Of a stretch of DNA of 64,000 nt, positions 4,284 to 56,333 are shown piece by piece; positions within the stretch are counted from its first letter, which is position 1, and every line of letters begins with the position of its first letter. This DNA comes from a virus (lineage: Duplodnaviria > Heunggongvirae > Uroviricota > Caudoviricetes): positions 64,566-128,565 of IMG/VR virus record IMGVR_UViG_3300010348_000547; one strand, written 5' to 3'. A program made the position numbers and the translations under genes. A model generated the notes under the pieces. That model saw nothing but the letters and a program-made list of their open reading frames with translations, searched no databases and was not told where the DNA came from.

Positions 4284-4502
4284 TTATCGTGCACGTTCTA
4301 ACACTCTCATTAAATTATAAGATGTAAAACCTTCAAGTTCGTCCGCTAGTTCATCGGGTATTTCAGGTTCATCTGAAAAATTACATCCTTCATACCTTGC
4401 ACCTGAACGGGTTGGTATGCATTTTTGAGTATAAGTTTTTCCCTTATAGTTAAGAACTATTGTGGCTTCTTTGCGCGTTGCTGTGATTGTAATTGTATCC
4501 AT
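4284..4502 (-). CDS. hypothetical protein (72 aa)
   Basis: ORF. Confidence 0.35.
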   Translation of the reverse strand: MDTITITATRKEATIVLNYKGKTYTQKCIPTRSGARYEGCNFSDEPEIPDELADELEGFTSYNLMRVLERAR

Positions 4503-4503
4503 G

Positions 4504-4722
4504 TTATTTGCATTTGCATCCCCAGTTAGGGTTTTCTTGATGCTCTTTTAATGTTATGGTTTTAATATCAAGGTCATCTTCAGAAGCTTCTTTCATAAAA
4601 TTAGCTCTTTGTTTTTTGTCCATGCAGTGCCATACAGCTGCCGATACATTACCGTTACATTTTCTGCAAAAGCCAATTTTTATTTCTACCTCTTCTGGTG
4701 GAAGTTCTTTAGTTTTGTCCAT
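4504..4722 (-). CDS. zinc-ribbon protein (72 aa)
   Basis: CxxC...CxC cysteine pairs (CRKCNG...CKCK). Confidence 0.4.
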   Translation of the reverse strand: MDKTKELPPEEVEIKIGFCRKCNGNVSAAVWHCMDKKQRANFMKEASEDDLDIKTITLKEHQENPNWGCKCK

Positions 4723-4784
4723 GTTGTTTAAAAATTATAAGGAGCCCTCGGTCGAAACTCCGGACTCCTTACCCATCGCCATGG

Positions 4785-5108
4785 TTAGTTTTGTGATTCT
4801 TGTCTCTTTTCTTTCAGAACTTTCACCAGCTTCTCAATTTCAAACCTCATCTCTTCAGGGATGCTGTTCATATATTCTTCAGTTGGTTTAATGAAGTTCA
4901 TGTTTTCGTCCAGAGTATTTATCTCAAGACATTTATCGCAAAGGATGATATCACCAGGACGCATTTCTACTTCCTGGTTACCATCAAATGGCAATGCTGA
5001 CTTCATCTCGAAGCCGCAGTGCCCGCATTTGTTTTCATTAGTGTTCATAACAGTTTCCACATAATTGTCCATCATAGAAAATTGCAGTAGATGGTTGCAT
5101 GGTACCAC
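4785..5108 (-). CDS. zinc-ribbon protein (107 aa)
   Basis: CGHCG...CDKC motifs. Confidence 0.4.
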   Translation of the reverse strand: MVPCNHLLQFSMMDNYVETVMNTNENKCGHCGFEMKSALPFDGNQEVEMRPGDIILCDKCLEINTLDENMNFIKPTEEYMNSIPEEMRFEIEKLVKVLKEKRQESQN

Positions 5109-6153
5109 ATTTCATACATGGCCATCCATCCTCATCCACAACTTCTGTTGGGGTTTCTACTACCGGTTCTTCAGCTTGGTGGTTCTGTTCCACTTCAGCC
5201 ATTGTCACCGGATACTTTTGAATTGCTTCTCTACCGATTTCCTCGATGATATCCGTCTTCTCCTGAACTTCCTCAGCATTATTTTGCTCAACCGCATGCC
5301 CAATACATGGTGCTACGGCTTCTTTCATTTCTGCAGATTGCTCTGCTTCCTTGATAGCATCGATAATGTTTAGCTGGTTAGGATTATCTGCGATAATGTT
5401 TTCCGGCTTAGACTCCTCAATATGTAATACAGGATTACCTACATTAAAGTCTTTGCAGATTAGATAGTGAATCATTCTTTGCTGGTCCATCCAGGTACGC
5501 GGATGTGATTTCTGAAGAGCAAAGATGATTGCATTATACATTTCCCACAAGCTATCCGTGATACCTGAGTATTCGAAACTTGGCTTTCTGAATTCCGTCT
5601 TCACAATCCCTAATTGCTCACCAGTAACAAGCTCATTCATATAATATGCACGGCCCATAAATTCTGCACGCAACTGCTCAGGTGCCAATATGTTCTTCAT
5701 TATCTCTTTGTCCATGATTAGCTGCTTAAAATACTCTTCAGCATTGTTAATCTGCTCCTCTATCTGGTCAAACACTTCCTGGTCTGCTGTTCCTGTATGC
5801 TTTCTTCCGAACGTAGCCATGTTTCCGCCAATCACTGTTGCCAATGATGCATGCACATAACCTCCGATAGAACACTTAAAGCGCATGCTTTTGTCGTATG
5901 AATTACTCCACGCGAACATCATTCCCAAATCTGGGTCATCTCCGTAGTTCAGGTGATATATTCCCTGCGCTACCTGAGCTCCCTCATTGCATCGATACAG
6001 CTCACGCTGAATCTCCAATCCTTTACTAGCAAGGACTTCACGGACTTTATCAATAATTGCTCCGTGCGATATCACAGTGTACGTATCAGTTGCCTCTGGA
6101 AGTGAAGCTTTGATTAAATACTCGTGTGTAGTTGTATTTGCTCTTTTACTCAT
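5038..6153 (-). CDS. DUF932-like phage/plasmid protein with a C-terminal zinc ribbon
   Basis: 371 aa. The N-terminal region resembles the DUF932 (TIGR03299) family, and the C-terminus has CMKCG...CGNC. Confidence 0.45.
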   Translation of the reverse strand: MSKRANTTTHEYLIKASLPEATDTYTVISHGAIIDKVREVLASKGLEIQRELYRCNEGAQVAQGIYHLNYGDDPDLGMMFAWSNSYDKSMRFKCSIGGYVHASLATVIGGNMATFGRKHTGTADQEVFDQIEEQINNAEEYFKQLIMDKEIMKNILAPEQLRAEFMGRAYYMNELVTGEQLGIVKTEFRKPSFEYSGITDSLWEMYNAIIFALQKSHPRTWMDQQRMIHYLICKDFNVGNPVLHIEESKPENIIADNPNQLNIIDAIKEAEQSAEMKEAVAPCIGHAVEQNNAEEVQEKTDIIEEIGREAIQKYPVTMAEVEQNHQAEEPVVETPTEVVDEDGWPCMKCGTMQPSTAIFYDGQLCGNCYEH

Positions 6154-38667: not shown

Positions 38668-39141
38668 CTAGAAAGGCTTATCATCACTTAAGTTCTCGGG
38701 ATATTCCTCCGAGTGATTGAATACAACATCTGGGATACATGAATAGGAATCTTCTGTTGAATTACCTGATTCATCTATGCGCTCATAACGTACTTGTATA
38801 GATTCACGACGGTTGTGATTGATATCAACAACTACAGCTTTCACTAATGTTTCTTTTACTAGTAAACCTGCTTCACGCATTCTATCTTTATTCATACGCC
38901 ATGTGGGCATGTTGTCCCAAGGTATTAGTACATCATCTCCTATCTTTACATGCACTGATGGTTTTAATCCACTAAATGCATTATACAGATGAGATAAACC
39001 CATTTCTGAATCTGCTAAACCATCTACAATGGTTTCTGCGATAAGAGTGGCATGTGGGGTACCTTTCATGCACCCCACTAGCCTTTCTTTAATTTGTTCC
39101 ACAGATGTTCTTACTTCTATGTATGACTTTTTTCTTGACAT
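38668..39141 (-). CDS. hypothetical protein (157 aa)
   Basis: ORF. Confidence 0.45.
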   Translation of the reverse strand: MSRKKSYIEVRTSVEQIKERLVGCMKGTPHATLIAETIVDGLADSEMGLSHLYNAFSGLKPSVHVKIGDDVLIPWDNMPTWRMNKDRMREAGLLVKETLVKAVVVDINHNRRESIQVRYERIDESGNSTEDSYSCIPDVVFNHSEEYPENLSDDKPF

Positions 39142-40121
39142 TACTTTAAGTTAATCATGGGTGTGTTATTACCTAAGATTGTAGTTGGCAACTTACCATC
39201 CCAAGTTTGTGCTTTGATAAAGTCCACATAAATTGGAGACAATTCTTGTTTCTTCAAACGCATTGCTTCTGCTACACCTTTGGCTTCAATGATATCCGCT
39301 TGTGCTTTACCTGATGCTGTAATTACGGCTTTAGCTGAGTCACCTTTAGCTTGAGCGATTAACTTCTTGGCATTGGCATCTGCTACTAAAGCTTCTTGCA
39401 TTTTAGCTTGTGCTTCTTGAATTGCTTTGGTCTTATTTACAATAGCCTCTTTTAATGCTTCAGGAGGAACAATGTTGGTTCTCAACTGTGATACCGTAAA
39501 CCATTTAGAAACGCGCTTATTACATTCTGCTACAATAGCTGCTTCAAACTGTTCTCGGTTATTGAAGATGTCATCAACTGCCCACTTATTGGCTACGTCA
39601 TTAACAGAGCCACATACAGCATTCATTAACCAGCCCTGTTCAATTTCTTTAACGCTTACACGCAAGTTGACGAACATATCACCTACCTGGTCTGGCTTTA
39701 ATGTGTAATTGAATGTTGGTTTAATCGTTGCTGAGAATCCTCCTTTAGTAATTACACCCTGGTCTGCATACTCAATATGCTGTTGGAATGTAGGAAACTC
39801 ATATAAGTCTTCAGCCCAATTATTATACACGACCCAACCTGTTTTATAAGTATAGTCTGATACACCACGTTCATTACCGGTTAAGTTCACTTTGATACCA
39901 ATATGACCCGCATCTACACGTTCAAGACTATAAGGCTGAAATATGGCTACAATAAGAGCGCTCACCGCAATCACAATTGGCATCTTCAGCCAAGAACCTT
40001 TTACCTTTCGGATTTTATCTCCATAACGCGTTTCGGTCACTGTGAAACCGTCATTACGAGTTGCTACTAATAAACCACAGGCTAATGCTAAGCCTACTAA
40101 CAAGATAATTAATGAGATCAT
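39141..40121 (-). CDS. SPFH/band-7 domain membrane protein
   Basis: N-terminal TM anchor. The Ala/Lys/Gln-rich coiled tail (AIQEAQAKMQEALVADANAKKLIAQAKGDSAKA) is typical of HflK/C and prohibitin-like proteins. Confidence 0.55.
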   Translation of the reverse strand: MISLIILLVGLALACGLLVATRNDGFTVTETRYGDKIRKVKGSWLKMPIVIAVSALIVAIFQPYSLERVDAGHIGIKVNLTGNERGVSDYTYKTGWVVYNNWAEDLYEFPTFQQHIEYADQGVITKGGFSATIKPTFNYTLKPDQVGDMFVNLRVSVKEIEQGWLMNAVCGSVNDVANKWAVDDIFNNREQFEAAIVAECNKRVSKWFTVSQLRTNIVPPEALKEAIVNKTKAIQEAQAKMQEALVADANAKKLIAQAKGDSAKAVITASGKAQADIIEAKGVAEAMRLKKQELSPIYVDFIKAQTWDGKLPTTILGNNTPMINLK

Positions 40122-40447: not shown

Positions 40448-41848
40448 TTAGTCAAATTTCACGCGAGCATATCGGTCTGTCATCACTGTGTCTAACATCA
40501 GTTGTTCAGGTCCGTAAACCTTACCCTTCAGAATAGACTTCAGTATTGATGGACTGAAACCGGATACCAATCCTACGCCTTGGTCTTGAACCTGTGCAGG
40601 AGAATTACCCAAACGACCGTTCACATTCCAGAAGATAATCTCAGGCATTACATAACCAGATTGGTTATACTTTGCACGGATTACATCCAAGTTTGTAGAG
40701 CGATTGTCTCTAGTTGCTGTATTAAACTCCATATCAGAGATAATTAACAACTTAGTAGGCATTTCTTCAGAGGGAATATTCTCTCTGATTGCACTGTTCA
40801 GGATTAGGTCAAAGGAAGCCTGCAGATTAGTGGTCATTCCCCACGCTGCTGAACTCAACTGACGCATCCTTTGAGTCAATGACCCTTTCAGGTATTGCAT
40901 CTCAGGATTTGAGCTGAATGTCAGGAACGCATCCTTGAATATACCTTCGTTTCTCTCAGAGATATAAATCCCAAGAGCAACGGATACATCCATAGGTAAC
41001 CCACCGTTATCATTCATAGAGCCAGACACATCACACATCGGTAAGATGCGTTCAGTACTGCCTTCCATGTAATTAGGTAGGTTATTCCACTGAGCTTCGA
41101 TTGCGCTTGCATTTTGACCACTCTTAACTGCTTGATACAATTGATGAGGGAACAAAACAGAGGCATTAATCTTGGCTTCTCCTGAATGAACTGCATCGAT
41201 ATATGCTTTCATGCGAGCTTCATCATGCTTGAAAAATGCCGTACGGTATCTATTCATAGCAATCGAAGGTACATGAGCATAATTAATGCCACCCCATTCA
41301 CGTCTGCACATAAGCGTCTCCACTACTACAGTCTTTTTCACTAAGTATTGACGGAACTCTTTTGGAGTTACTTTCATATACTTGTGCATGGCTACAAACC
41401 ATGGACCTTTGCGTGGGAACCACTTGGCTAAAAGACCAGCGTTCTCCGATTCCTCTAATGTTGTTTTCAACCAATTAAGGTTGTTATCATTAGGTTTCTC
41501 GATAACGAACACGTCTTTCCAGTATCCGAACTCTGGCACAAGAATCATCAGCTGATCAAAGACTTCCGGATAGTTAGTACCAATATGGCTCATAACAATT
41601 TGGAAGAATCTTCTCTCACCTGCACCTCCTCGTGCGTCGCGAGCCCAAAACAATATCTTCACAGCAACTAATGAGTCTTGAGCGAATGCTCTCTCAAAGG
41701 CTGTCACGATATCTTTTGGTTGCATGTTGCGAGATGCTCCTGCTAAGAAGAACAAATCTACACATGAATTTAACGAAGTCGAGTGCGTAACTGCTCCGTT
41801 TGCTGTCACGCTATTATAGCTGCGTGTTGCGTTTACTAATCTACTCAT
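40448..41848 (-). CDS. VWA-domain protein, candidate TROVE/Ro60-like (DUF2828-type)
   Basis: 466 aa. The C-terminal half has MIDAS elements (MCDVSGSMN, a Thr in TNLQASFD, LLIISDMEFN). The N-terminal half of about 260 aa is alpha-rich. An ORF-free ncRNA island with tRNA-like RNAs lies immediately upstream. Confidence 0.45.
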   Translation of the reverse strand: MSRLVNATRSYNSVTANGAVTHSTSLNSCVDLFFLAGASRNMQPKDIVTAFERAFAQDSLVAVKILFWARDARGGAGERRFFQIVMSHIGTNYPEVFDQLMILVPEFGYWKDVFVIEKPNDNNLNWLKTTLEESENAGLLAKWFPRKGPWFVAMHKYMKVTPKEFRQYLVKKTVVVETLMCRREWGGINYAHVPSIAMNRYRTAFFKHDEARMKAYIDAVHSGEAKINASVLFPHQLYQAVKSGQNASAIEAQWNNLPNYMEGSTERILPMCDVSGSMNDNGGLPMDVSVALGIYISERNEGIFKDAFLTFSSNPEMQYLKGSLTQRMRQLSSAAWGMTTNLQASFDLILNSAIRENIPSEEMPTKLLIISDMEFNTATRDNRSTNLDVIRAKYNQSGYVMPEIIFWNVNGRLGNSPAQVQDQGVGLVSGFSPSILKSILKGKVYGPEQLMLDTVMTDRYARVKFD

Positions 41849-41895
41849 TTGGCTTAGGTTTTTTAGTTAGTTAATAATTGATTAATGGTGATGTA

Positions 41896-42121
41896 CCCCT
41901 CTGCACTCAGTTATGCATGTTGTTTACTTCATTTCTGAAGGATGATTCGTTAGATGCTTTCTAGGCTCCTATACAATTGTAAGCAAATAAAAGTCCGTAA
42001 GATTTCTCTTGGGAACAGTAACAACAAACGTTAATCCATCATTGACTAATCTTGCTTGGTTCCTCGCGTGTTAGTCTACATAACTGCTCACCCTTGGGAA
42101 GTGAGTTATGGTGCATTAATA
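41896..42121. repeat. structured repeat element, copy 1 (conserved 16-nt 5' arm and 39-nt 3' arm around a 170-nt variable stem-loop)
   Basis: CCCTCTGCACTCAGTT...AACTGCTCACCCTTGGGAAGTGAGTTATGGTGCATTAAT. The internal stem CAGTTATG/CATAACTG covaries with copy 2. Confidence 0.5.
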
Positions 42122-42614
42122 TACAGGCGTGTTCAACATGTATAGTGAGACTTCATCTGTGTCTATACACTTCCCTCATTAAGGCCTTAGCCACCTGTAA
42201 TGTTATCTCAAGCACTTAGTTGTAGTAGTCAGACTGGGATTGATTACCCAGGCTCTGGCAGGGTACCACAACTACTGTCACACTACAACATTGTGCTATG
42301 AGAAAACTGTGTTGATTTTTAACAATGGACCAGGTTACTCCACCAATCATTACTAATTGGCTTCATAGATAAAGCATCATAGCTCACCTGAGTGTTTTAA
42401 TCCATCTAATCTTTAACAGTTATAGAGATAATAAATAAATGCAGGTCAACATCATCCCTGCTTGCCCCAGATATTGAAGACTAGATATGCTCTAATTGGC
42501 TGTTCTTTGGGGTTACCCTGATGGTTATTAACCTATTCCACTCAGCTGTGGGGTCAGATTGTTTAAATTAATAACTCGTGCTCTTTATACTCAGCAGGGA
42601 GAGATTTTGGATAT

Positions 42615-42718
42615 CCCTCTGCACTCAGTTGTAATAGTTGGTCTTAGGTCAATATCAATAGATATCCCATGTACATTACAACTGCTCACCCTTGGGAAGT
42701 GAGTTATGGTGCATTAAT
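42615..42718. repeat. structured repeat element, copy 2 (same arms, 49-nt variable stem-loop)
   Basis: Identical 5' and 3' arms. The internal stem CAGTTGTAAT/ATTACAACTG keeps base-pairing through compensatory changes. Confidence 0.5.
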
Positions 42719-42940
42719 TTTGGGAGAACCCACCACCTTTTCACGGGTGATGGGGCTCAGATGTACGACAGGATACGGTTACCACCACACGCTACTTTCG
42801 TAGGCAGGTTCTCCCGGGTTATTGAACTTATAGTTTATAGTTTATAAGTTGCTGATGTATCCTTTGACATCTAATGTTTGCAGAATGCTACTAAGCCAAG
42901 TTATCAAATTGGATTAATATGCTGAAGCATTCTTTGTTTG

Positions 42941-43061
42941 TGGGGGCAGCAGGATTCGAACCTGCGACACATTGTTTTTAGTTTGGTATGCTGACCCAAT
43001 CAACAGATTGGACTGCTTTCGCAGTTATAGACGATTGCTCTACCAGCTGAGCTACACCCCC
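42941..43061 (-). ncRNA. tRNA-like RNA A (acceptor, D-arm and T-arm intact; about 70-nt structured insertion replaces the anticodon region)
   Basis: Minus strand: GGGGGTG-TA-GCTCAGCTGGTAGAGC...GCAGGTTCGAATCCTGC-TGCCCCC-A. The insert holds a GNRA hairpin CTGCGAAAGCAG and the motifs TAACTGC and GCATACCAAAC. Confidence 0.55.
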
Positions 43062-43307
43062 GTTTGCTGTCTGTTCCAGCTGTCAACCCGTATTGTTCTT
43101 ATTGGATGGATGTTACCTCAATGGGCTCATTTCGATGCCAGTGTCCCACTTATTGCTCTGACAAAATCAGTTTTCGGGCCCGTTACTGTTCTTTCGAACT
43201 TAAGTATCCCTGATGCTGAAACATGGTGTGCAGAACTTTCTCTGTAGTCAACCACCCTTATGTAATTAAAAGTCACTAGTACTTCTCAGTCATAAGGCAG
43301 GATTTTG

Positions 43308-43423
43308 TAGGGAGGGCTGGACTCGAACCAGCGACCACGACGTTAACAGCGTAAGTTGGTATGCAGTTAGCAACCTTTGACAGGCTGCGTTTTACGTGCT
43401 CTAACCAGCTGAGCTACCTCCCT
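43308..43423 (-). ncRNA. tRNA-like RNA B (paralogue of A with a different, about 64-nt insertion)
   Basis: Minus strand: AGGGAGG-TA-GCTCAGCTGGTTAGAGC...GCTGGTTCGAGTCCAGC-CCTCCCT-A. It shares TAACTGC and GCATACCAAC with A. Confidence 0.55.
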
Positions 43424-43776
43424 AAAAATACGGACTCCAGCTTGATTCATTAAAAGTGAATTGCTTAAGTTGCTGTATGGAGTCCTTATTAGACAGATTC
43501 CCTTTTTGCTTTTTCCAATAAAAGTTTTTTAAGTTGCGGATGGAATCTTTGTTTAAGGTGGCTGAGAGTGTTGAGCTTTGTCTTGCGACTGACTCAACCT
43601 TTTGCTCTCAGCAATTTCTTAAAGAGTTCAGACTTGGTTACCTGGTAACTGTTGTCTCGGATCTCTCCGGCTACGTTCACTCGAATGGTGTCTACGCAGC
43701 TAAACTACATGCATTGTTCCTGACTTTCGTCAACGCTTTGAGCTTATAACACTCACAGTTGTTTTGCTCAGACCTT

Positions 43777-43792
43777 TTTTTGTATATTTGTC
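43777..43792 (+). promoter_or_regulatory. Bacteroidetes-type -7 promoter element (TTTTTTTGTATATTTG) driving a near-leaderless HNH gene
   Basis: TAnnTTTG consensus 4-5 nt before ATG 43795. The same 16-mer precedes the HNH gene at 47002. Confidence 0.45.
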
Positions 43793-43794
43793 TT

Positions 43795-44277
43795 ATGAAG
43801 ACTTGTACACAATGTGATGGTAAACATCACGCTAAAGGTTACTGTAAGATTCACTACAAGGAGTTTATTCTCGACAGTAAAAAGCTTAATCAACTATGCT
43901 CAATAGATGGTTGTAACAATAATGTTGGAAAGAACGGTTTTAACGGATTATGTTCTAAACATTATACCCGTGTAAGACGTAATGGAGATGCTTTAATTGC
44001 AGGTAAAAACCGACAGTTTTATTCACTCCAAGAGTTCTTTAACACTAATGATACAGATACAATTCTTGACACTGTATTTGAAAGCAGAGTACGCTGGGCG
44101 TTTGCCGTCAAACTTTATTATGGTGACAAGTGTTGTAAATGTGGATGGGCTGAAACATCTTGCGATGCTGATCATATCATCCCTTTTGAATCCGGTGGTC
44201 CTAACACAATAAGAAATGGACAAGTTTTATGTCCTAATCATCATGCTATTAAACACCGACCTTCTACATCATCTTGA
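43795..44277 (+). CDS. HNH endonuclease with N-terminal Cys-rich repeats
   Basis: C-terminal CDADHIIPFESGGPNTIRNGQVLCPNHHAIKH. The ORF track starts at 43759, but the internal ATG at 43795 is chosen because of the promoter position. Confidence 0.6.
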   Translation: MKTCTQCDGKHHAKGYCKIHYKEFILDSKKLNQLCSIDGCNNNVGKNGFNGLCSKHYTRVRRNGDALIAGKNRQFYSLQEFFNTNDTDTILDTVFESRVRWAFAVKLYYGDKCCKCGWAETSCDADHIIPFESGGPNTIRNGQVLCPNHHAIKHRPSTSS

Positions 44278-44390: not shown

Positions 44391-44534
44391 TCATATTCCG
44401 CCACAATAGGCGCACTCAATCCAAGCACCTGTACCTGGACCACCAACATATTCATTATGGCCGCAATAGCCACATTTGAATACGAGCCTTTTGGGTTTTA
44501 CTTTAGGCTTTGATTTATGTTGTTTCTTTTTCAT
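44391..44534 (-). CDS. small zinc-ribbon protein (47 aa; not in the ORF track because it is under 60 aa)
   Basis: MKKKQHKSKPKVKPKRLVFKCGYCGHNEYVGGPGTGAWIECAYCGG with two CxxC pairs. Confidence 0.3.
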   Translation of the reverse strand: MKKKQHKSKPKVKPKRLVFKCGYCGHNEYVGGPGTGAWIECAYCGGI

Positions 44535-44542
44535 CAAATTCA

Positions 44543-44582
44543 AAAGATGAGACCGCGCATTAAATAGCTAGGTCTCATCTTT
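44543..44582. terminator. 12-bp perfect hairpin (AAAGATGAGACC-N16-GGTCTCATCTTT), candidate terminator or processing site
   Basis: Long perfect stem between convergent transcription units, with flanking T-rich sequence on both strands. Confidence 0.4.
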
Positions 44583-53644: not shown

Positions 53645-53716
53645 GGGGCTATAGCTCAGTTGGTAGAGCAGCGGACTGAAAATCCGTGGTCCCTGGTTCG
53701 ATTCCAGGTAGCCCCA
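53645..53716 (+). tRNA. tRNA-Phe (GAA)
   Basis: Cloverleaf GGGGCTA/TAGCCCC, D GCTC-AGTTGGTA-GAGC, anticodon loop CTGAAAA, T-loop TTCGATT. Confidence 0.8.
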
Positions 53717-53722
53717 CAATAT

Positions 53723-53805
53723 GCCGACACTGCAGAGTGGGAGATCTGCACCAGACTGTAAATCTGGCGTCATTGACTTTGGGGGTTCGAGTCCCTCTGG
53801 CGGCA
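53723..53805 (+). tRNA. tRNA-Tyr (GTA), class II
   Basis: Anticodon arm CCAGA-CTGTAAA-TCTGG, 13-nt variable arm, T-arm GGGGG-TTCGAGT-CCCTC, one A.G mismatch in the acceptor stem. Confidence 0.65.
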
Positions 53806-53811
53806 CAACAC

Positions 53812-53894
53812 GGAAGTGGTCTGAATGGACGAAGAGCTAGTCTTGAAAACTGGTGGCTGTAAAAGGTTTGGGGGTTCGATTCCCTTCGCTTCCG
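53812..53894 (+). tRNA. tRNA-Ser (TGA), class II
   Basis: Acceptor GGAAGTG/CGCTTCC-G, anticodon arm CTAGT-CTTGAAA-ACTGG, long variable arm. Confidence 0.7.
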
Positions 53895-53899
53895 CAAAT

Positions 53900-53972
53900 A
53901 CATCTCTAGCTCAACTGGTAGAGCAGTGGTCTCCAAAACCAAAGGTTGTAGGTTCGATTCCTGCGAGATGTG
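53900..53972 (+). tRNA. tRNA-Trp (CCA)
   Basis: ACATCTC/GAGATGT acceptor, anticodon loop CTCCAAA, canonical D and T arms. Confidence 0.8.
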
Positions 53973-53977
53973 CAAAT

Positions 53978-54050
53978 GGTACCGTGGATGAGTTGGTTTA
54001 GTCTCAGGTCTGCAAAACTTGCTACGTCAGTTCGAATCTGACCGGTACCT
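53978..54050 (+). tRNA. tRNA-Cys (GCA)
   Basis: Acceptor GGTACCG/CGGTACC, anticodon arm CAGGT-CTGCAAA-ACTTG, T-arm GTCAG-TTCGAAT-CTGAC, irregular D region. Confidence 0.6.
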
Positions 54051-54059
54051 CAAACATAC

Positions 54060-54146
54060 GGAAGATAGGCAGATATTGGTTTGTTGCACCGCACTGCTAA
54101 CGCGGCCCAGGTAAAACTGGTGAGGGTTCGAGCCCCTTGTCTTCCG
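54060..54146 (+). tRNA. tRNA-Ser (GCT), class II
   Basis: Acceptor GGAAGAT/GTCTTCC, anticodon loop CTGCTAA, variable hairpin CCAG-GTAAAA-CTGG. Confidence 0.7.
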
Positions 54147-54152
54147 CACTAT

Positions 54153-54234
54153 GCCTCTGTGGCGGAATTGGTAGACGCGTTGGTCTTAGGAACCAATGTC
54201 GAAAGGCGTGCAGGTTCGAGTCCTGTCAGAGGTA
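54153..54234 (+). tRNA. tRNA-Leu (TAG), class II
   Basis: Anticodon arm TTGGT-CTTAGGA-ACCAA, 13-nt variable arm, T-arm GCAGG-TTCGAGT-CCTGT. Confidence 0.75.
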
Positions 54235-54238
54235 CAAT

Positions 54239-54318
54239 GCTCCGGTGGTGAAACTGGTAGACGCGCAGGACTTAAAATCCTGTCCTTCGGGGTGCGGGTT
54301 CAAATCCCGCTCGGAGTA
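54239..54318 (+). tRNA. tRNA-Leu (TAA), class II
   Basis: Anticodon arm CAGGA-CTTAAAA-TCCTG, T-arm GCGGG-TTCAAAT-CCCGC. Confidence 0.75.
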
Positions 54319-54523
54319 CAAAAAAAAAATATTTTTGCAAAATGTTTGCAGGAATAAAAACTATGCTTATATTTGTAGCGCAAATGAAACATGTACAACA
54401 TATAAATATCCAGGTGGCGAAAGCCATGATTACGCGCAGAGGCGATGAGCCGTCATGCCCGGAGGGTTTTGTATATTGTCTTGCTTCACATAAATAAGAA
54501 GTCATAGAAATCAAAATACGCAA

Positions 54524-54560
54524 AAGCCTCTGGGAATCATCTCAGAGGCTTTTTTGTTTT
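54524..54560 (+). terminator. rho-independent terminator inside the tRNA array
   Basis: AGCCTCTG-N10-CAGAGGCT followed by TTTTTTGTTTT. It abuts the 5' end of tRNA-Pro. Confidence 0.6.
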
Positions 54561-54633
54561 CGAGATGTAGTTCAGTTGGTAGAACGCGTGCTTTGGGAGC
54601 ATGAGGTCGTCGGTTCGAGTCCGGCTATCTCGA
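54561..54633 (+). tRNA. tRNA-Pro (TGG)
   Basis: Acceptor CGAGATG/TATCTCG, anticodon loop TTTGGGA, T-arm GTCGG-TTCGAGT-CCGGC. Confidence 0.75.
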
Positions 54634-54643
54634 CTTAAATTAT

Positions 54644-54716
54644 GGGCCAGATGCCGACGGCAGGTCAACCCGCTTGCACCGGGATTGTATGGGTTCGATT
54701 CCCACTGTGTCCACAG
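54644..54716 (+). pseudogene. pseudo-tRNA or tRNA-like fragment with an Ala-type anticodon loop (CTTGCAC) and no acceptor stem
   Basis: Anticodon arm ACCCG-CTTGCAC-CGGGA and T-arm TGGG-TTCGATT-CCCA are present, but the flanks cannot pair as an acceptor stem. Confidence 0.35.
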
Positions 54717-54781
54717 AGCTGATTATCAGGTGCAACCTAACAGCGGATTCGCAACCCGTCTGGATAATCAGGTTACATTAA

Positions 54782-54857
54782 GCGCCAGTAGCTCAATTGG
54801 TAGAGCTCTAGCCTTCCAAGCTAGAGGTTGCGGGTTCGAGACCCGCCTGACGCTCCA
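54782..54857 (+). tRNA. tRNA-Gly (TCC), CCA encoded
   Basis: Anticodon arm CTAGC-CTTCCAA-GCTAG, T-arm GCGGG-TTCGAGA-CCCGC, 3' CTGACGC-T-CCA. Confidence 0.75.
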
Positions 54858-55015
54858 ACATCTGTGATTACAATAAGCAGATGGAAGGGAAGTAAAATGA
54901 AATTCAGCACGGGGTTAGTTCTGCGTGTTTGTAAGGAGTGGTTGGAGGCCACAGTCCCCGACTAACAGGGACAAAGTACTGAAAAAGCCTTATAACGAAT
55001 GGATTACTTCCCTAT
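54858..55015 (+). ncRNA. structured spacer RNA candidate between tRNA-Gly and tRNA-Asp
   Basis: Hairpin CATCTG/CAGATG at 54859-54883. A 9-bp long-range stem GGGAAGTAA (54887-95)/TTACTTCCC (55004-12) encloses internal hairpins such as GTCCC-N9-GGGAC. A 22-codon micro-ORF lies inside. Confidence 0.35.
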
Positions 55016-55022
55016 GATTTTT

Positions 55023-55101
55023 GGTCTGTTGGGGGAGTTCGGCCGTCCCTGCTGCACTGTCACTGCAGAGATCACGGGTTCAAATCCCGTACAGACCGCC
55101 A
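55023..55101 (+). tRNA. tRNA-Asp (GTC), CCA encoded
   Basis: Acceptor GGTCTGT/ACAGACC-G-CCA, anticodon arm CTGCA-CTGTCAC-TGCAG, T-arm ACGGG-TTCAAAT-CCCGT. Confidence 0.75.
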
Positions 55102-55180
55102 GGAAGCAAACATGGGTTCGATTCCCATCAACTGGTCTAGTGCCGGTTGTCGTCTAGGGGTCAGGACGGCTTCACGTTAT
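55102..55180 (+). other. permuted tRNA-like halves (a 3' half followed by a 5' half of a Glu-type tRNA-like sequence)
   Basis: Order: GAAGC (anticodon 3' strand), AAAC, T-arm ATGGG-TTCGATT-CCCAT, acceptor 3' AACTGGT, then acceptor 5' GCCGGTT, GT, D-arm CGTC-TAGGGGTCAG-GACG, anticodon 5' strand GCTTC. All four stems are complementary but circularly permuted. Confidence 0.4.
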
Positions 55181-55252
55181 TGCTTCTTAGCTCAGCGGTA
55201 GAGCAGCGCCCTGTTAAGGCGACGGTCCTAGGTTCAATCCCTAGAGGAGCAG
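55181..55252 (+). tRNA. tRNA-Asn (GTT)
   Basis: TGCTTCT-TA-GCTC-AGCGGTA-GAGC, anticodon loop CTGTTAA, T-arm CTAGG-TTCAATC-CCTAG, 3' AGGAGCA-G. Confidence 0.7.
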
Positions 55253-55259
55253 CAAACAT

Positions 55260-55334
55260 TGACACATGGCGCAGCCTGGTTAGCGCATCACACTGATAAT
55301 GTGAGGGTCCCAAGTTCAAATCTTGGTGTGTCAA
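55260..55334 (+). tRNA. tRNA-Ile (GAT)
   Basis: TGACACA/TGTGTCA, anticodon arm TCACA-CTGATAA-TGTGA, T-arm CCAAG-TTCAAAT-CTTGG. Confidence 0.75.
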
Positions 55335-55340
55335 CTTAAT

Positions 55341-55415
55341 ATCAGAATAGCTCAGCTGGTTCAGAGCAACACCCTTACAAGGTGAAGGCCGGGAGTTCGA
55401 ATCTCTCTTCTGATA
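55341..55415 (+). tRNA. tRNA-Val (TAC)
   Basis: ATCAGAA/TTCTGAT, anticodon loop CTTACAA, T-arm GGGAG-TTCGAAT-CTCTC. Confidence 0.7.
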
Positions 55416-55496
55416 CACAAAATATATTTAAACTTGTAATGTTTACACTAATAAGATATAGAAGAAGCAAGGCTAAGATAAAATCTTAGTCCAAAC

Positions 55497-55570
55497 TCCT
55501 CTATAGCTTAGCTGGCTAAAGCACCATACTTTTAATATGGGGACCGCGGGTTCGAATCCCGCTAGAGGAA
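55497..55570 (+). tRNA. tRNA-Lys (TTT)
   Basis: TCCTCTA/TAGAGGA, anticodon arm CCATA-CTTTTAA-TATGG, T-arm GCGGG-TTCGAAT-CCCGC. A hairpin CTAAGAT-AAA-ATCTTAG sits just upstream at 55471-55492. Confidence 0.75.
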
Positions 55571-55577
55571 CAAATCT

Positions 55578-55654
55578 CTCCCCATAGCTTAACTGCATAA
55601 AGCTTTTGCCTTCTAAGCAAACGATTACAAGTTGGAATCTTGTTGGGGAGACCA
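55578..55654 (+). tRNA. tRNA-Arg (TCT), CCA encoded
   Basis: CTCCCCA/TGGGGAG-A-CCA, anticodon arm TTTGC-CTTCTAA-GCAAA. Confidence 0.75.
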
Positions 55655-55655
55655 C

Positions 55656-55730
55656 GCACCTTTAGCTCAGTTCGGTCAGAGCAGCTCACTCATAATGAGA
55701 AGGTCGTTGGTTCAAGTCCAATAAGGTGCA
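55656..55730 (+). tRNA. tRNA-Met (CAT), elongator-type
   Basis: GCACCTT/AAGGTGC, anticodon loop CTCATAA, no 3xG-C initiator signature. Confidence 0.7.
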
Positions 55731-55740
55731 CAAAATATTT

Positions 55741-55814
55741 GGCGGGGTAGAGCAGTCGGCTAGCTCGTGAGACTCATAACCTCAAGGTCACTGGTTCGAA
55801 TCCAGTCCCCGCTA
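55741..55814 (+). tRNA. tRNA with CAT anticodon, second copy (Met, or Ile2 if lysidinylated; fMet unlikely)
   Basis: GGCGGGG/CCCCGCT, anticodon loop CTCATAA, T-arm ACTGG-TTCGAAT-CCAGT. Confidence 0.65.
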
Positions 55815-55879
55815 CTAGAGTGCTAATGACGCCTGACAAAGGAGGGGATATATAACGCAGGTCTCCCGACACTCAACTT

Positions 55880-55951
55880 GTTCCTGTCTTCTAGGGGTTA
55901 GGATATTGCCCTTTCACGGCAATGACACGGGTTCGAATCCCGTCAGGAATA
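55880..55951 (+). tRNA. tRNA-Glu (TTC)
   Basis: GTTCCTG/CAGGAAT, Glu-type D-arm TTC-TAGGGGTTAG-GAT, anticodon arm TTGCC-CTTTCAC-GGCAA. Confidence 0.7.
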
Positions 55952-55956
55952 CATAA

Positions 55957-56029
55957 GCCAAAGTAGCTCAGCTGGTAGAGCTCCTGATTTGTAATCAGAT
56001 GGTCGTAGGTTCGAACCCTATCTTTGGCT
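55957..56029 (+). tRNA. tRNA-Thr (TGT)
   Basis: GCCAAAG/CTTTGGC, anticodon loop TTTGTAA, canonical D-arm. Confidence 0.75.
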
Positions 56030-56031
56030 CT

Positions 56032-56106
56032 GTGTTAGTAGCATATTCGGTTAATGTATCAGATTGTGGATCTGAGGAACAGGGTTCGATTCCCGCTAAC
56101 ACCCCA
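56032..56106 (+). tRNA. tRNA-His (GTG), CCA encoded, weak T-stem
   Basis: GTGTTAG/CTAACAC-C-CCA, anticodon arm TCAGA-TTGTGGA-TCTGA. Only a 3-bp T-stem and no encoded G-1. Confidence 0.55.
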
Positions 56107-56109
56107 ATT

Positions 56110-56183
56110 GGTTTCGTAGCTCAACTGGATAGAGCGTTACACTACGGATGTAAAGGTTCGGGGTTCGACTCCCTGTGAGACCA
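56110..56183 (+). tRNA. tRNA-Arg (ACG)
   Basis: Anticodon arm TTACA-CTACGGA-TGTAA, T-arm CGGGG-TTCGACT-CCCTG. Confidence 0.7.
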
Positions 56184-56191
56184 CTTCTTAT

Positions 56192-56264
56192 TGTCCTGTA
56201 GATTAACTGGCAAATCGTCTGATTTTGGATCAGAAGACTCCTGGTTCGAACCCAGGCGGGACAA
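56192..56264 (+). tRNA. tRNA-Gln (TTG)
   Basis: U1:A72-type acceptor TGTCCTG/CGGGACA, D-arm GATT-AACTGGCA-AATC, anticodon arm TCTGA-TTTTGGA-TCAGA. Confidence 0.7.
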
Positions 56265-56333
56265 CTTTCTTTTACAAGTTCTTGCATATTTGAATTGTTT
56301 TCTGTATATTGATTAAAAGATATTGACAGCATC

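What the first reader, a model, noticed from the sequence alone, without database searches (positions are those of the whole stretch)
42941..43423. Two paralogous tRNA-like RNAs with intact acceptor, D and T arms but structured 64-70-nt insertions in place of the anticodon arm
On the minus strand both elements have perfect 7-bp acceptor stems, canonical D-arms (GCTCAGCTGGT(T)AGAGC) and T-arms (GGTTCGA(A/G)TCC). Between the D-arm and T-arm sit 64-70 nt instead of the usual 22. The insertions share the motifs TAACTGC and GCATACCAAC. The insert in A also contains a GNRA hairpin (CTGCGAAAGCAG) and the hairpin CAATC-TGTT-GATTG. They sit on the opposite strand from the 24-gene tRNA array, next to the putative Ro-like gene. 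They could be tRNA mimics (Y-RNA-like modules, or decoys for host anticodon nucleases or tRNA-targeting defences). They could also be tRNAs carrying an unusual intron.
Basis: seen in the sequence. Interest (0 to 1): 0.8.

Follow-up and report, generated by a model that had tools for sequence, protein, structure and literature searches.

The report
tRNA-shaped partner RNAs of phage Ro-like protein
The two odd tRNA-like genes are real members of a widespread phage family: tRNA-shaped RNAs with an extra arm (a hairpin followed by the motif ACAGCAA) that almost always lie beside a gene for a Ro60-like RNA-binding protein, so they are most likely that protein's partner RNAs and not decoding tRNAs.

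Summary
Element B (43308-43423, minus strand) has not lost its anticodon arm. It is a complete tRNA-Asn-like cloverleaf (loop CUGUUAA) with a 42-nt extra arm inserted into the 5' strand of the anticodon stem, between nt 28 and 29. Element A (42941-43061) has a 5-position stem closed by a 55-nt arm in place of the anticodon loop.

Both arms carry a hairpin followed by an ACAGCAA-type motif (ACUGCAU in B, UCAGCAU in A). A search based on architecture alone found about 67 distinct relatives in viral contigs. Most loci hold two or three copies, and each multi-copy locus has at least one complete-cloverleaf type. The acceptor stem, T stem, arm hairpin and split anticodon stem all covary.

The RNAs sit on the same strand as a DUF2828/DUF7788 gene and within a few hundred bases of it. 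The window's copy of that gene (40448-41848) folds like Ro60. Exact ACAGCAA occurs 39 times on the gene strand within 800 nt of such genes, against once on the other strand.

Orthologs change their anticodon, so decoding or splicing is unlikely. The best reading is Y-RNA analogues built on an unpermuted tRNA scaffold: a new variant of the Ro/Y-RNA theme that is absent from Rfam and from the literature I could search.

The parts
43308..43423 (-). Element B, a type I RNA: complete tRNA-like cloverleaf (116 nt) with an extra arm in the anticodon stem
   Evidence: Rfam tRNA 47.0 bits. Family model R1 94.4 bits, against 55 or less for ordinary tRNAs (B was in the training set). Orthologs at L170:164-279 and L172:4334-4448.
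43353..43394 (-). B extra arm, 42 nt (UAAAA spacer, hairpin, A, ACUGCAU, ACCAACUU linker), inserted between anticodon-stem nt 28 and 29
   Evidence: Split-stem analysis. In-silico excision gives tRNA-Asn(GTT). Coordinates.
43370..43388 (-). B arm hairpin GCAGCC-UGUCAAA-GGUUGC
   Evidence: The homologous hairpin shows 13-16 double compensatory changes per pair across 31 sequences. L170 changes G.U to G-C, and L172 and L012 have different stems.
43361..43367 (-). B arm motif ACUGCAU, a variant of the family motif ACAGCAA
   Evidence: It aligns with ACAGCAA in the family. The L172 ortholog has the canonical CACAGCAA.
43338..43352 (-). B lower anticodon stem and loop: ACG / CUGUUAA / CGUCG. The anticodon GUU is at 43345-43347; the upper stem C-G is at 43395-43396.
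   Evidence: The cloverleaf with a covarying anticodon stem was recovered by RNAalifold on 35 arm-excised members.
42941..43061 (-). Element A, a type II RNA: tRNA-like (121 nt) with the anticodon loop replaced by a 55-nt arm
   Evidence: Rfam tRNA 48.6 bits. R1 74.5 bits (A was in the training set). It is essentially identical in L170:526-647 and L172:4616-4736.
42976..43030 (-). A arm: CUAUAA, GNRA hairpin (43013-43024), hairpin CCAAUC-UGUU-GAUUGG (42996-43011), G, UCAGCAU (42988-42994), ACCAAACUAAAA. It is closed by the stem AUCGU (43031-43035) / ACAAU (42971-42975).
43064..43070 (-). Exact ACAGCAA in the conserved 5' leader of A (GACAGCAAAC, immediately before the acceptor stem)
40448..41848 (-). 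Ro60-fold protein gene (466 aa; DUF2828 + DUF7788, i.e. a TROVE-like helical repeat plus vWA); the inferred protein partner
   Evidence: Pfam. AlphaFold model with pLDDT 79. The top five Foldseek PDB matches are all Ro60/TROVE, E about 1e-7. Homologs lie beside the RNA in 27 of 41 RNA-derived loci.
39141..40121 (-). SPFH/Band-7 gene downstream of the Ro-like gene; a recurrent neighbour
   Evidence: Pfam Band_7. Cluster C3 is present in 8 RNA-derived loci. A Band-7 gene also lies near the Ro-like gene of mycobacteriophage DuncansLeg.
43432..43547 (-). Two stem-closed RNAs (43494-43547 and 43432-43485), each a stem plus CCAU(C)C(A)GCAACUUAA. They carry the ACAGCAA motif without a tRNA scaffold.
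   Evidence: Weak Rfam Dicty_Class_I_RNA hits. Sequences. Conserved in L170 and L172.

Best explanation
A and B are the noncoding RNA partners of the adjacent Ro60-like (DUF2828) protein. They are functional analogues of Y RNAs, built on an ordinary, unpermuted tRNA scaffold.

Shown:
- B is a full cloverleaf whose anticodon stem carries a 42-nt side arm.
- A has the arm in place of the anticodon loop.
- The arm is a hairpin followed by a single-stranded ACAGCAA-type heptamer.
- This arm and motif, and the same-strand adjacency to a DUF2828 gene, recur across very different phages.
- The protein has the Ro60 fold.

Inferred:
- The hairpin plus ACAGCAA is the docking site for the Ro-like protein, as the bulged stem of a Y RNA is for Ro60.
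- The tRNA body, with its 7-bp acceptor stem, D-arm and T-arm, lets host RNase P, RNase Z and the CCA-adding enzyme cut the RNAs out of the transcript and stabilise them. It also presents a tRNA shape to some tRNA-handling partner. In type I that shape includes a genuine anticodon loop.
- The resulting particle probably acts in RNA surveillance, tRNA repair or counter-defence during infection. That last step is the least supported.
For: Family and structure:
- An architecture-only search of viral contigs gave 90 elements with a closing acceptor stem. Model R1 then found 69 hits above 60 bits (67 distinct) in 46 loci.
- The acceptor stem, T stem and arm hairpin covary strongly.
- A complete split anticodon stem forms in 53 of 66 members, against 6% of shuffled inserts.
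- RNAalifold on 35 arm-excised members returns a cloverleaf with 11-17 double changes per anticodon-stem pair.

Linkage to the protein:
- 27 of 41 loci found through the RNA alone encode a homolog of the window's protein on the same strand, about 100-800 nt away. Most of the remaining loci are truncated.
- This was replicated in genome contigs: 6 of 7 family-like hits have the gene, against 4 of 113 other hits (Fisher P = 4e-7).
- Exact ACAGCAA occurs 39 times on the gene strand within 800 nt of the gene, against once on the other strand. That is 0.61 per kb against a random expectation of 0.06 (P about 1e-12).
- The motif is found in the same place in Listeria P100, Bacillus, Staphylococcus, Campylobacter, Mycobacterium, Vibrio, Enterococcus and Fusobacterium phages.

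Protein:
- Foldseek's top five matches are Ro60/TROVE structures, at full length with probability 1.0.

Precedents:
- Thermus phage phiLo Ro60 binds two Y-like RNAs encoded upstream of its gene (PMC12135203).
- Bacterial YrlA combines a Ro-binding module with a tRNA mimic. [quoted passage not shown]

Local conservation:
- The B-then-A order is kept upstream of the gene in L170 and L172.
Against: - There is no direct evidence of binding, expression or processing. The protein-RNA link rests on synteny and motif enrichment.
- The protein has no significant sequence match to TROVE/Ro60. The similarity is at fold level only, with TM about 0.45-0.52.
- The motif sometimes lies just upstream of the start codon (Vibrio R10Z). 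It could therefore be, at least partly, a cis-acting leader element.
- Many close relatives of the window's protein (L001, L003, L173 and others) lack the tRNA-scaffold RNAs, so the scaffold is dispensable.
- The retained canonical anticodon loop in type I is not explained by simple protein docking.
- The arm's basal helix has only weak statistical support.
Confidence: 0.65

Rival explanations
1. Intron-containing tRNA genes. The arm is an intervening sequence that is cut out, and the exons are ligated, giving functional tRNAs (B would give tRNA-Asn GUU).
For: - Deleting the 42-nt arm of B in silico gives a textbook 74-nt cloverleaf that ARAGORN calls tRNA-Asn(GTT).
- 35 arm-excised relatives fold into a covarying cloverleaf.
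- The loops are canonical, with U33 and with A37 in 32 of 36.
- Some phages with the system also encode an RtcB-type 'tRNA splicing ligase' (Listeria P100).
Against: - Type II members, including A, have no anticodon loop and cannot yield a tRNA.
- Orthologs with near-identical acceptor stems carry different anticodons: window and L170 GUU, L172 UUG, L012 UGG. L089 has AUUGUAA where L064a has AUUGGGG.
- The discriminator is A, G or C among GUU members.
- The phage already has a normal tRNA-Asn, only 68% identical to B's body.
- The most conserved part of the whole RNA lies in the supposed intron, and the same motif occurs outside tRNA scaffolds beside the same gene.
- The insertion is in a stem strand at 28/29 or 29/30, not at 37/38. 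At 42-55 nt it is far too short for a group I intron (established knowledge), and Rfam finds no intron family.
- No RtcB or Pnkp was found among the window ORFs I scanned.
Confidence: 0.1
2. Anticodon-loop decoys or baits. The type I RNAs mimic particular host or phage tRNAs to absorb, or to report, attack by anticodon nucleases or other tRNA-targeting defences. The arm and the Ro-like protein would then be accessory: stabilising, or recruiting repair or decay enzymes.
For: - The loops match real tRNA anticodon loops: CUGUUAA Asn, CUUGUAA Thr, CUUCUAA and CUCCUAA Arg, UUUGGGU Pro, CUGAUAA Ile, AUUUUAA Lys.
- The loops switch identity between close orthologs while the scaffold stays the same, which is the pattern expected under an arms race.
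- The genes lie in or near phage tRNA arrays.
- Some relatives have RNA-repair genes nearby.
Against: - No nuclease target is identified, and no experimental link exists.
- Type II RNAs and the scaffold-free ACAGCAA hairpins have no anticodon loop, yet they are equally conserved.
- The observed loop changes could be neutral drift within a shape constraint: L012 and L172 differ by a single base.
Confidence: 0.2
3. Mainly cis-acting elements. ACAGCAA hairpins would be operators through which the protein regulates its own mRNA, and the tRNA-like bodies would serve only as RNase P/Z punctuation to process the transcript.
For: - The motif is on the gene strand, usually upstream and sometimes within about 30 nt of the start codon (Vibrio R10Z, Fusobacterium, Enterococcus phages).
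- Several copies occur per locus.
Against: - In many loci the RNAs lie downstream of the gene (L064, L089, L067, mycobacteriophage DuncansLeg, Staphylococcus phage, Cronobacter S13).
- A complete, covarying cloverleaf with a maintained anticodon loop is far more than punctuation needs.
- In the window, A is 1.09 kb from the start codon.
Confidence: 0.08
4. Decayed tRNA pseudogenes, or chance resemblance.
For: Default ARAGORN does not call them. A has a mismatch in its stem and no anticodon loop.
Against: - There is strong covariation in four helices.
- A is essentially invariant across three contigs.
- The family has about 67 distinct members sharing a 7-nt motif.
Confidence: 0.01

Closest known systems
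YrlA, the bacterial and mycobacteriophage Y RNA (Chen et al. 2014, PMC4201824)
   Same: It is encoded beside a Ro60-type gene on the same strand, often in two or more copies. It combines a protein-binding module with a tRNA mimic that has D- and T-arms. Where the acceptor stem has 7 bp, it is a substrate for RNase P and CCA addition.
   Different: - YrlA is permuted. Its 5'/3' ends form the Ro-binding stem at the anticodon position, and the acceptor-like stem is capped by a loop. Here the ends are in a normal acceptor stem, and the protein-binding candidate is a side arm.
- YrlA has the GNCGAAN0-1G motif. These RNAs have ACAGCAA and no such motif.
- Type I RNAs keep a full anticodon stem-loop, which YrlA lacks.
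- The partner is a DUF2828-clade protein, not a Pfam-TROVE Ro60.
- There is no Rfam Y-RNA match.
Thermus phage phiLo Ro60 with Yrl1 and Yrl2 (PMC12135203)
   Same: A phage-encoded Ro60-fold protein with two small RNAs encoded just upstream of its gene. It is the closest structural match to the window's protein (9l5y and 9kop).
   Different: Yrl1 and Yrl2 are stem-bulge-stem RNAs with CGAA motifs, not tRNA cloverleaves. Sequence identity of the proteins is only about 16%.
Intron-containing tRNA genes (archaeal and eukaryal BHB introns; bacterial group I introns in anticodon loops)
   Same: An extra segment interrupts the anticodon arm of an otherwise normal tRNA gene, and deleting it restores a cloverleaf.
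   Different: The position is 28/29 or 29/30, in the stem strand. The length is 40-57 nt. The conserved motif lies inside the insert. The anticodon is unstable between orthologs. Loop-less type II paralogs exist. No intron family is detected.
Dictyostelium Class I RNAs (Rfam RF01414)
   Same: A short terminal stem followed by a single-stranded CCUUACAGCAA. The window's two stem-closed RNAs read stem + CCAUACAGCAACUUAA and give sub-threshold hits (PMC7919456).
   Different: The scores are below the gathering threshold (25.6 against 41.5 bits). Class I RNAs are reported as restricted to dictyostelids, and their known binder is an RRM protein. No tRNA scaffold is involved. This is resemblance only.

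Membership tests
tRNA (Rfam RF00005) | Score at or above the Rfam gathering threshold, with acceptor, D and T arms | tested here: met
   48.6 bits (A) and 47.0 bits (B) against a gathering score of 29, over the full model length.
tRNA (Rfam RF00005) | Contiguous 5-bp anticodon stem with a 7-nt loop | tested here: not met
   B has the stem and the loop CUGUUAA, but the 5' strand is interrupted by 42 nt. A has a stem and no 7-nt loop. Default ARAGORN rejects both.
tRNA (decoding function) | Anticodon and identity elements conserved between orthologs | tested here: not met
   Window and L170 have GUU, L172 has UUG and L012 has UGG, all on near-identical acceptor stems. The discriminator is A, G or C among GUU members.
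tRNA (decoding function) | Aminoacylation and use on the ribosome | not testable with these tools
   Needs acid-gel Northern blots or charging assays.
YrlA / bacterial Y RNA | Encoded within a few kb of a Ro60-type gene, on the same strand | tested here: met
   A and B lie 1.1-1.6 kb upstream of a Ro60-fold gene on the same strand. The same arrangement is found in 27 of 41 RNA-derived loci.
YrlA / bacterial Y RNA | Permuted layout: ends in the Ro-binding stem and a loop-capped acceptor-like stem (order T, AS, D) | tested here: not met
   The order here is acceptor, D, arm or anticodon, T, acceptor, with free ends in the acceptor stem. The YrlA layout is from PMC4201824.
YrlA / bacterial Y RNA | GNCGAAN0-1G Ro-binding motif; match to an Rfam Y-RNA model | tested here: not met
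   The motif is absent from A and B. One chance-level instance lies at 43731, outside them. No Y-RNA family appears at E <= 10.
Ro60 / TROVE protein (the neighbour) | Pfam TROVE domain, or a sequence match to solved Ro60 structures | tested here: not met
   Pfam finds only DUF2828 and DUF7788. phmmer against the PDB finds nothing relevant.
Ro60 / TROVE protein (the neighbour) | Ro60 fold: helical-repeat ring followed by a vWA domain | tested here: met
   The top five Foldseek hits are Ro60/TROVE structures, E 2e-7 to 7e-7, probability 1.0, 505-562 aligned columns. The next hits are vWA domains. TM is only 0.43-0.52, so the domain arrangement may differ.
tRNA with group I intron | Intron of about 200 nt or more in the anticodon loop, with a group I core | tested here: not met
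   The inserts are 42 and 55 nt. There is no Intron_gpI hit at E <= 10.
tRNA with BHB (archaeal or eukaryal) intron | Bulge-helix-bulge at the exon-intron junctions, typically at 37/38 | tested here: inconclusive
   The position is 28/29, not 37/38. I did not model a BHB motif explicitly. No splicing endonuclease is known in bacteria or phages (established knowledge).
tmRNA | tRNA-like domain plus a tag reading frame | tested here: not met
   ARAGORN finds no tmRNA in the window. By eye, no consistent frame links GCA to the conserved UAA.

The most novel reading that the evidence does not exclude
The Ro-like protein and the type I RNA form a particle that displays a genuine, exchangeable tRNA anticodon stem-loop. 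The loop identity is retuned between closely related phages (GUU, UUG, UGG; UGU and UGG) to match whichever tRNA the host's anticodon nucleases or other tRNA-directed defences attack. The particle then works as a decoy, or as a sensor and repair platform, for damaged tRNA. This would give the large 'Ro-like' DUF2828 family of Felixounavirus, P100-like, mycobacterial and many other phages its first concrete function.

A further speculative extension is that the hairpin-ACAGCAA module is an ancient DUF2828-binding signal, also used by the Dictyostelium Class I RNAs.
Probability: 0.2. Interest if true: 0.85.

Novelty: new variant of a known kind. Interest (0 to 1): 0.72.

Why it matters
DUF2828 'Ro-like RNA-binding proteins' occur in at least 696 deposited phage genomes, including Felixounavirus, Listeria P100-type, Staphylococcus, Campylobacter and mycobacterial phages, some of which are therapeutic or model phages. 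No RNA partner or function is assigned to them in any record I looked at.

This finding supplies a candidate partner RNA class, a precise candidate binding signal (hairpin plus ACAGCAA) and a covariance model, so the question becomes directly testable. It also shows a second, independent way in which Ro-type particles have recruited tRNA mimicry: a whole tRNA with a side arm, as opposed to the permuted YrlA design.

It explains the oversized 'tRNA-Ser' and 'tRNA-OTHER' annotations in phage records. It also warns that intron-aware tRNA finders will mis-assign these genes; here ARAGORN forced Leu and Trp calls.

Tried and rejected
- **blastn of the 2.5-kb region against deposited phages:** no match.
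- **First motif pattern, TAACTGC...ATACCAA...GGTTCGA, in viral contigs:** nine chance hits in coding DNA and no relatives.
- **ARAGORN intron mode:** forced, mutually inconsistent calls. A came out as Leu-taa with an intron at 33/34, and B as Trp-cca with an intron at 32/33 and a long variable arm. I rejected these in favour of the split-stem model.
- **nhmmer and the Rfam gathering scan on the protein-derived loci:** apart from L012, already found by the regex scan, they recovered only ordinary tRNAs.
- **Mini-tmRNA idea (GCA resume codon, conserved UAA stop):** no consistent reading frame on inspection, so I dropped it. The 'UAA' turned out to be U36-A37-A38 of the anticodon loop.
- **Neighbour cluster C2:** a spurious antisense ORF inside the DUF2828 gene.
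- **phmmer of the protein against the PDB:** nothing. The fold search was needed.
- **Arm basal helix (5' spacer with 3' linker):** clear in some members (GAAAGA/UCUUUC, GUAAAG/CUUUAC, GAAAAA/UUUUUC) but only weakly better than shuffles overall. I do not claim it as a family feature.
- **Genome contigs pattern scan:** 116 of 123 matches were ordinary tRNAs or chance.
- **Burroughs & Aravind 2016 (NAR gkw722):** I could not read it. From memory, its abstract mentions Rot/TROVE and SPFH/Band-7 scaffolds with 'YRNAs and a novel tRNA-like molecule'. That could overlap with this family, and it is unverified.
- **Other literature searches:** searches for DUF2828, for SPFH with tRNA-like, and for Ro-like with tRNA-like found nothing relevant.
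Full report
**1. What is in the sequence**

On the minus strand, element B occupies 43423..43308 (116 nt) and element A occupies 43061..42941 (121 nt). Rfam's tRNA model matches both end to end, at 47.0 and 48.6 bits against a gathering score of 29, with 55 and 51 unaligned bases in the anticodon region. Default ARAGORN finds the 23 tRNAs of the plus-strand array at 53645-56265 but neither A nor B.

B's acceptor stem is seven Watson-Crick pairs. A's has five G-C pairs and two G.U pairs. No Y-RNA, tmRNA or intron family matches the region, even at E <= 10.

**2. Surroundings**

A and B lie in a stretch of about 1.9 kb with no long ORFs (43750 to 41850). It sits upstream of, and on the same strand as, a 466-aa gene at 41848..40448 that matches Pfam DUF2828 and DUF7788. 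An SPFH/Band-7 gene follows at 40121..39141. A free-standing HNH endonuclease gene lies on the other strand at 43759-44277.

The protein has no sequence-level match in the PDB. An AlphaFold model (pLDDT 79) finds Ro60/TROVE structures as its five best Foldseek matches: Thermus phage phiLo Ro60, Xenopus Ro60 with and without misfolded RNA, and a 'Trove domain' entry. These align at full length, with E about 1e-7 and probability 1.0. Only vWA domains follow them. The 'Ro-like' label is therefore supported at fold level. TM scores of 0.43-0.52 leave room for a different domain arrangement.

The rest of the window is a phage replication module, and the ORFs I scanned include no RtcB or Pnkp.

**3. 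A and B belong to a large family**

I then searched viral contigs for the architecture alone: a canonical D-arm, 52-82 nt, then a T-arm. This returned at least 120 loci, 90 of them with a closing acceptor stem.

One unrelated class is eukaryote-type tRNA-Tyr with introns. Apart from that, the dominant class shares an insert made of a hairpin followed 0-3 nt later by ACAGCAA.

A covariance model built from 31 members scores B at 94 bits, A at 74 bits and ordinary tRNAs at 55 bits or less. Both B and A were in the training set. The model finds 69 hits above 60 bits, 67 of them distinct, in 46 loci. Exact ACAGCAA is present in 41 of the 67, and 54 have it with at most one mismatch.

RNAalifold shows many compensatory changes in the acceptor stem, the T stem and the arm hairpin, with 13-16 double changes per hairpin pair.

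**4. The anticodon arm is not missing**

Just before the variable loop, most members have a short stem with a 7-nt loop of the form YU-NNN-AA. The two or three bases after position 26 pair with the bases next to the variable loop. If the 5' strand is allowed to be split, a complete 5-bp anticodon stem forms in 53 of 66 distinct members, against 6% of shuffled inserts. The split is usually after nt 28 (28 cases) or nt 29 (11 cases).

The loops are those of real tRNAs: CUGUUAA, CUUGUAA, CUUCUAA, CUCCUAA, CUGAUAA, AUUUUAA and UUUGGGU among others. Among the 36 cleanest members, selected for having U33, A37 occurs in 32.

Thirty-five arm-excised sequences fold independently into a cloverleaf. Its anticodon stem shows 11-17 double changes per pair and at most 3 broken cells. 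One caveat applies: the excision points were chosen to maximise pairing. The shuffle control addresses that.

I call this architecture type I. B is type I:
- split stem CG|ACG paired with CGUCG
- loop CUGUUAA, with anticodon GUU at 43345-43347
- variable loop UGGUC
- arm at 43394..43353

Deleting the arm gives a 74-nt RNA that default ARAGORN calls tRNA-Asn(GTT).

A is type II. Its stem AUCGU/ACAAU is contiguous, with one C.A mismatch, and it closes a 55-nt arm that holds a GNRA hairpin, a second hairpin and UCAGCAU. Other type II members include L148, L105, L072 and L139.

**5. Paired paralogs are a property of the system**

Of the 46 loci, 19 carry two or three copies, and each of these has at least one type I RNA. 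The partner copy is type II in 6 loci, type I in 5, and ambiguous in 8.

Two sister contigs keep the B-then-A order upstream of the gene:

| Contig | Ro-like protein identity to window | B ortholog | A ortholog |
|---|---|---|---|
| L170 | 99% | 164-279 | 526-647 |
| L172 | 84% | 4334-4448 | 4616-4736 |

B has diverged to 79% identity in L172, with hairpin changes that keep pairing. There it has the canonical CACAGCAA and a different anticodon loop, UUUUGGU. A is essentially invariant, together with its leader GACAGCAAAC. The 512-nt block around A is 98% identical to L172. That indicates either recent exchange or very strong constraint.

**6. Link to the Ro-like protein**

The evidence comes from four directions.

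- **RNA-derived loci.** In the 41 loci found through the RNA alone, the only widely shared neighbour is a homolog of the window's DUF2828 protein. It is present in 27 loci, on the same strand, 100-800 nt upstream or downstream. Most loci without it are short or truncated. SPFH/Band-7 is present in 8.
- **Bacterial and archaeal genome contigs.** Only 7 of 123 pattern hits are family-like. Six of those 7 have the gene in the same locus, against 4 of the 113 others (Fisher P = 4e-7). All 7 come from MAG contigs, so the family looks phage-borne.
- **Protein-derived loci and cultured phages.** Across 40 such loci, exact ACAGCAA occurs 39 times on the gene strand within 800 nt of the gene, against once on the opposite strand. 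That is 0.61 per kb against 0.15 per kb distally and 0.06 per kb at random (Poisson P about 1e-12).
- **Isolates.** In Listeria P100, Bacillus Skywalker, a Staphylococcus phage, Campylobacter F357, mycobacteriophage DuncansLeg, Vibrio R10Z, Enterococcus H1 and Fusobacterium FNU3, the motif follows a hairpin strand (typically AGACAC-NU-ACAGCAA) and often has no tRNA scaffold. These hosts are too diverse for a shared promoter. The common factor is the protein.

Homologs of the protein occur in 696 deposited phage records, variously annotated 'Ro-like RNA-binding protein', 'RNA-binding protein' or DUF2828. No partner RNA is annotated in the records I inspected. The exception is Cronobacter phage S13, where two family members are labelled as a 121-nt 'tRNA-Ser' and a 113-nt 'tRNA-OTHER'.

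**7. How it most likely works**

*Shown:* the architecture, the covariation, the conserved motif, the synteny and the Ro60 fold.

*Inferred:* the hairpin plus single-stranded ACAGCAA is the docking site for the Ro-like protein. The tRNA body provides excision from the transcript by RNase P and RNase Z, CCA addition and stability. It also presents a tRNA shape to a further partner.

Two precedents support this. [quoted passage not shown] Thermus phage phiLo Ro60 binds two Y-like RNAs encoded upstream of its gene and recruits host PNPase (PMC12135203).

The downstream role is not established. It could be surveillance, repair of cleaved tRNAs, or decoy or counter-defence activity.

**8. Rivals**

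The intron model has to be taken seriously, because excision restores a perfect tRNA. Six points count against it:
- Type II RNAs cannot yield a tRNA.
- Orthologs on the same acceptor stem change anticodon (GUU, UUG, UGG). L089 has AUUGUAA where its close ortholog L064a has AUUGGGG.
- The discriminator base does not follow the anticodon.
- The phage has its own, different tRNA-Asn.
- The most conserved element lies inside the 'intron' and also exists outside tRNA scaffolds.
- The position and size fit no known bacterial splicing system (established knowledge).

The retained canonical loop shape, together with a changeable triplet, is what a mimic or decoy of tRNA anticodon loops would look like. 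I keep that as the most interesting open reading. A purely cis-regulatory role is unlikely, because many copies lie downstream of the gene. Pseudogenes or chance are excluded by the covariation.

**9. Comparison with the known, and novelty**

The system works like a Ro/Y-RNA particle with tRNA mimicry, but it fails the defining tests for YrlA. The topology is unpermuted, the GNCGAA motif is absent, there is no Rfam match, and the partner is not a Pfam-TROVE protein.

It is not in Rfam 15 other than as 'tRNA'. I found no description in the searchable literature. From memory, the abstract of Burroughs & Aravind 2016 mentions a 'novel tRNA-like molecule' linked to SPFH/Band-7 and Rot/TROVE scaffolds. 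I could not read the paper, so partial prior notice cannot be excluded.

I classify the finding as a new variant of a known kind.

**10. Verdict**

The claim that the anticodon arm is replaced is wrong for B.

- Confidence that A and B are partner RNAs of the Ro-like protein: about 0.65.
- Interest: 0.72.

Noticed in passing
window 43494-43547 and 43432-43485 (minus strand): Two stem-closed small RNAs, each a stem followed by CCAU(C)C(A)GCAACUUAA, carry the ACAGCAA motif without a tRNA scaffold. They give sub-threshold Rfam hits to Dictyostelium Class I RNA (25.6 and 19.8 bits; gathering score 41.5), whose hallmark is a stem plus single-stranded CCUUACAGCAA. Both are conserved in L170 and L172. 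Whether dictyostelid Class I RNAs relate to DUF2828 proteins is untested.
   Followed up: partly
window 42850-43550 (minus strand): Eight ACAGCAA-type motifs lie within about 700 nt (coordinate = 5' end of the 8-mer on the minus strand):
- 43541 AUCCGCAA
- 43477 UACAGCAA
- 43368 AACUGCAU
- 43220 UUCAGCAU
- 43071 GACAGCAA
- 42995 GUCAGCAU
- 42926 UUCAGCAU (L172 has the canonical UACAGCAA here)
- 42856 AUCAGCAA

This lineage, like Cronobacter phage S13, often uses CAGCAU in place of CAGCAA.
   Followed up: partly
window 41863-42722: An ~860-nt noncoding block is absent from the sister contigs L170 and L172. It holds two copies of a module that starts AUUAAUGCACCAUAACUCACUUCCCAAGGGUGAGCAGUU (39-nt perfect repeat at 42680-42718 and 42082-42120) and ends AACUGAGUGCAGAGGGRUA (42612-42630 and 41894-41912). 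The same module sits directly upstream of the DUF2828 gene in many relatives (L002, L005-L011, L013, L022, L034). It is probably another RNA of the system.
   Followed up: partly
window 42719-42821 (minus strand): A long hairpin (CCCGGGAGAACC ... GGGUUCUCCC, about 100 nt) lies between A and the repeated modules. It is conserved in L001, L003, L014, L027, L170 and L172. Its function is unknown.
   Followed up: no
window 42718-43229 compared with L172:4448-4960: The 512-nt block containing A is 98% identical between the window and L172, whereas B is 79% identical and the adjacent protein is 84% identical at the amino-acid level. This suggests recent recombination of this block or unusually strong constraint.
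   Followed up: partly
window 43759-44277 (+), and 44391-44543 (-): A free-standing HNH homing-endonuclease gene lies on the opposite strand at the edge of the ncRNA cluster. Sister contigs carry HNH or NUMOD genes at other positions nearby. Next to it is a 50-aa ORF with two CxxC pairs, a zinc-ribbon-like arrangement.
   Followed up: no
They cover 19 amino acids, and there is no tRNA-Ala. A T-arm-like segment at about 54640-54714 is not called as a tRNA.
   Followed up: no
L174 (Cronobacter phage S13, KC954775) 4895-5015 and 5025-5137: The deposited annotation labels two family members, right after the DUF2828 gene, as a 121-nt 'tRNA-Ser' and a 113-nt 'tRNA-OTHER'. They score 84.5 and 44.5 bits with the family model and carry UCAGCAC and UCAGCAU.
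   Followed up: yes
L168 (Mycobacterium phage DuncansLeg, ON755181) 3942-4218; L166 (Escherichia phage JH2, NC_029023) 4934-5064: These are unannotated ACAGCAA RNAs beside 'Ro-like RNA-binding protein' genes of cultured phages. DuncansLeg has two tandem elements, with three ACAGCAA motifs, immediately after the gene. JH2 has one element with a degenerate D-arm inside an unannotated tRNA cluster.
   Followed up: partly
L167 (Listeria phage P100) 4620-6500: P100's Ro-like gene lies a few genes from a metal-dependent phosphohydrolase and an RtcB-type 'tRNA splicing ligase'. Enterococcus phage H1 has a 'cyclic-phosphate processing receiver domain protein' and a phosphoesterase nearby. This is RNA-repair context, and it is absent from the window itself.
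   Followed up: no
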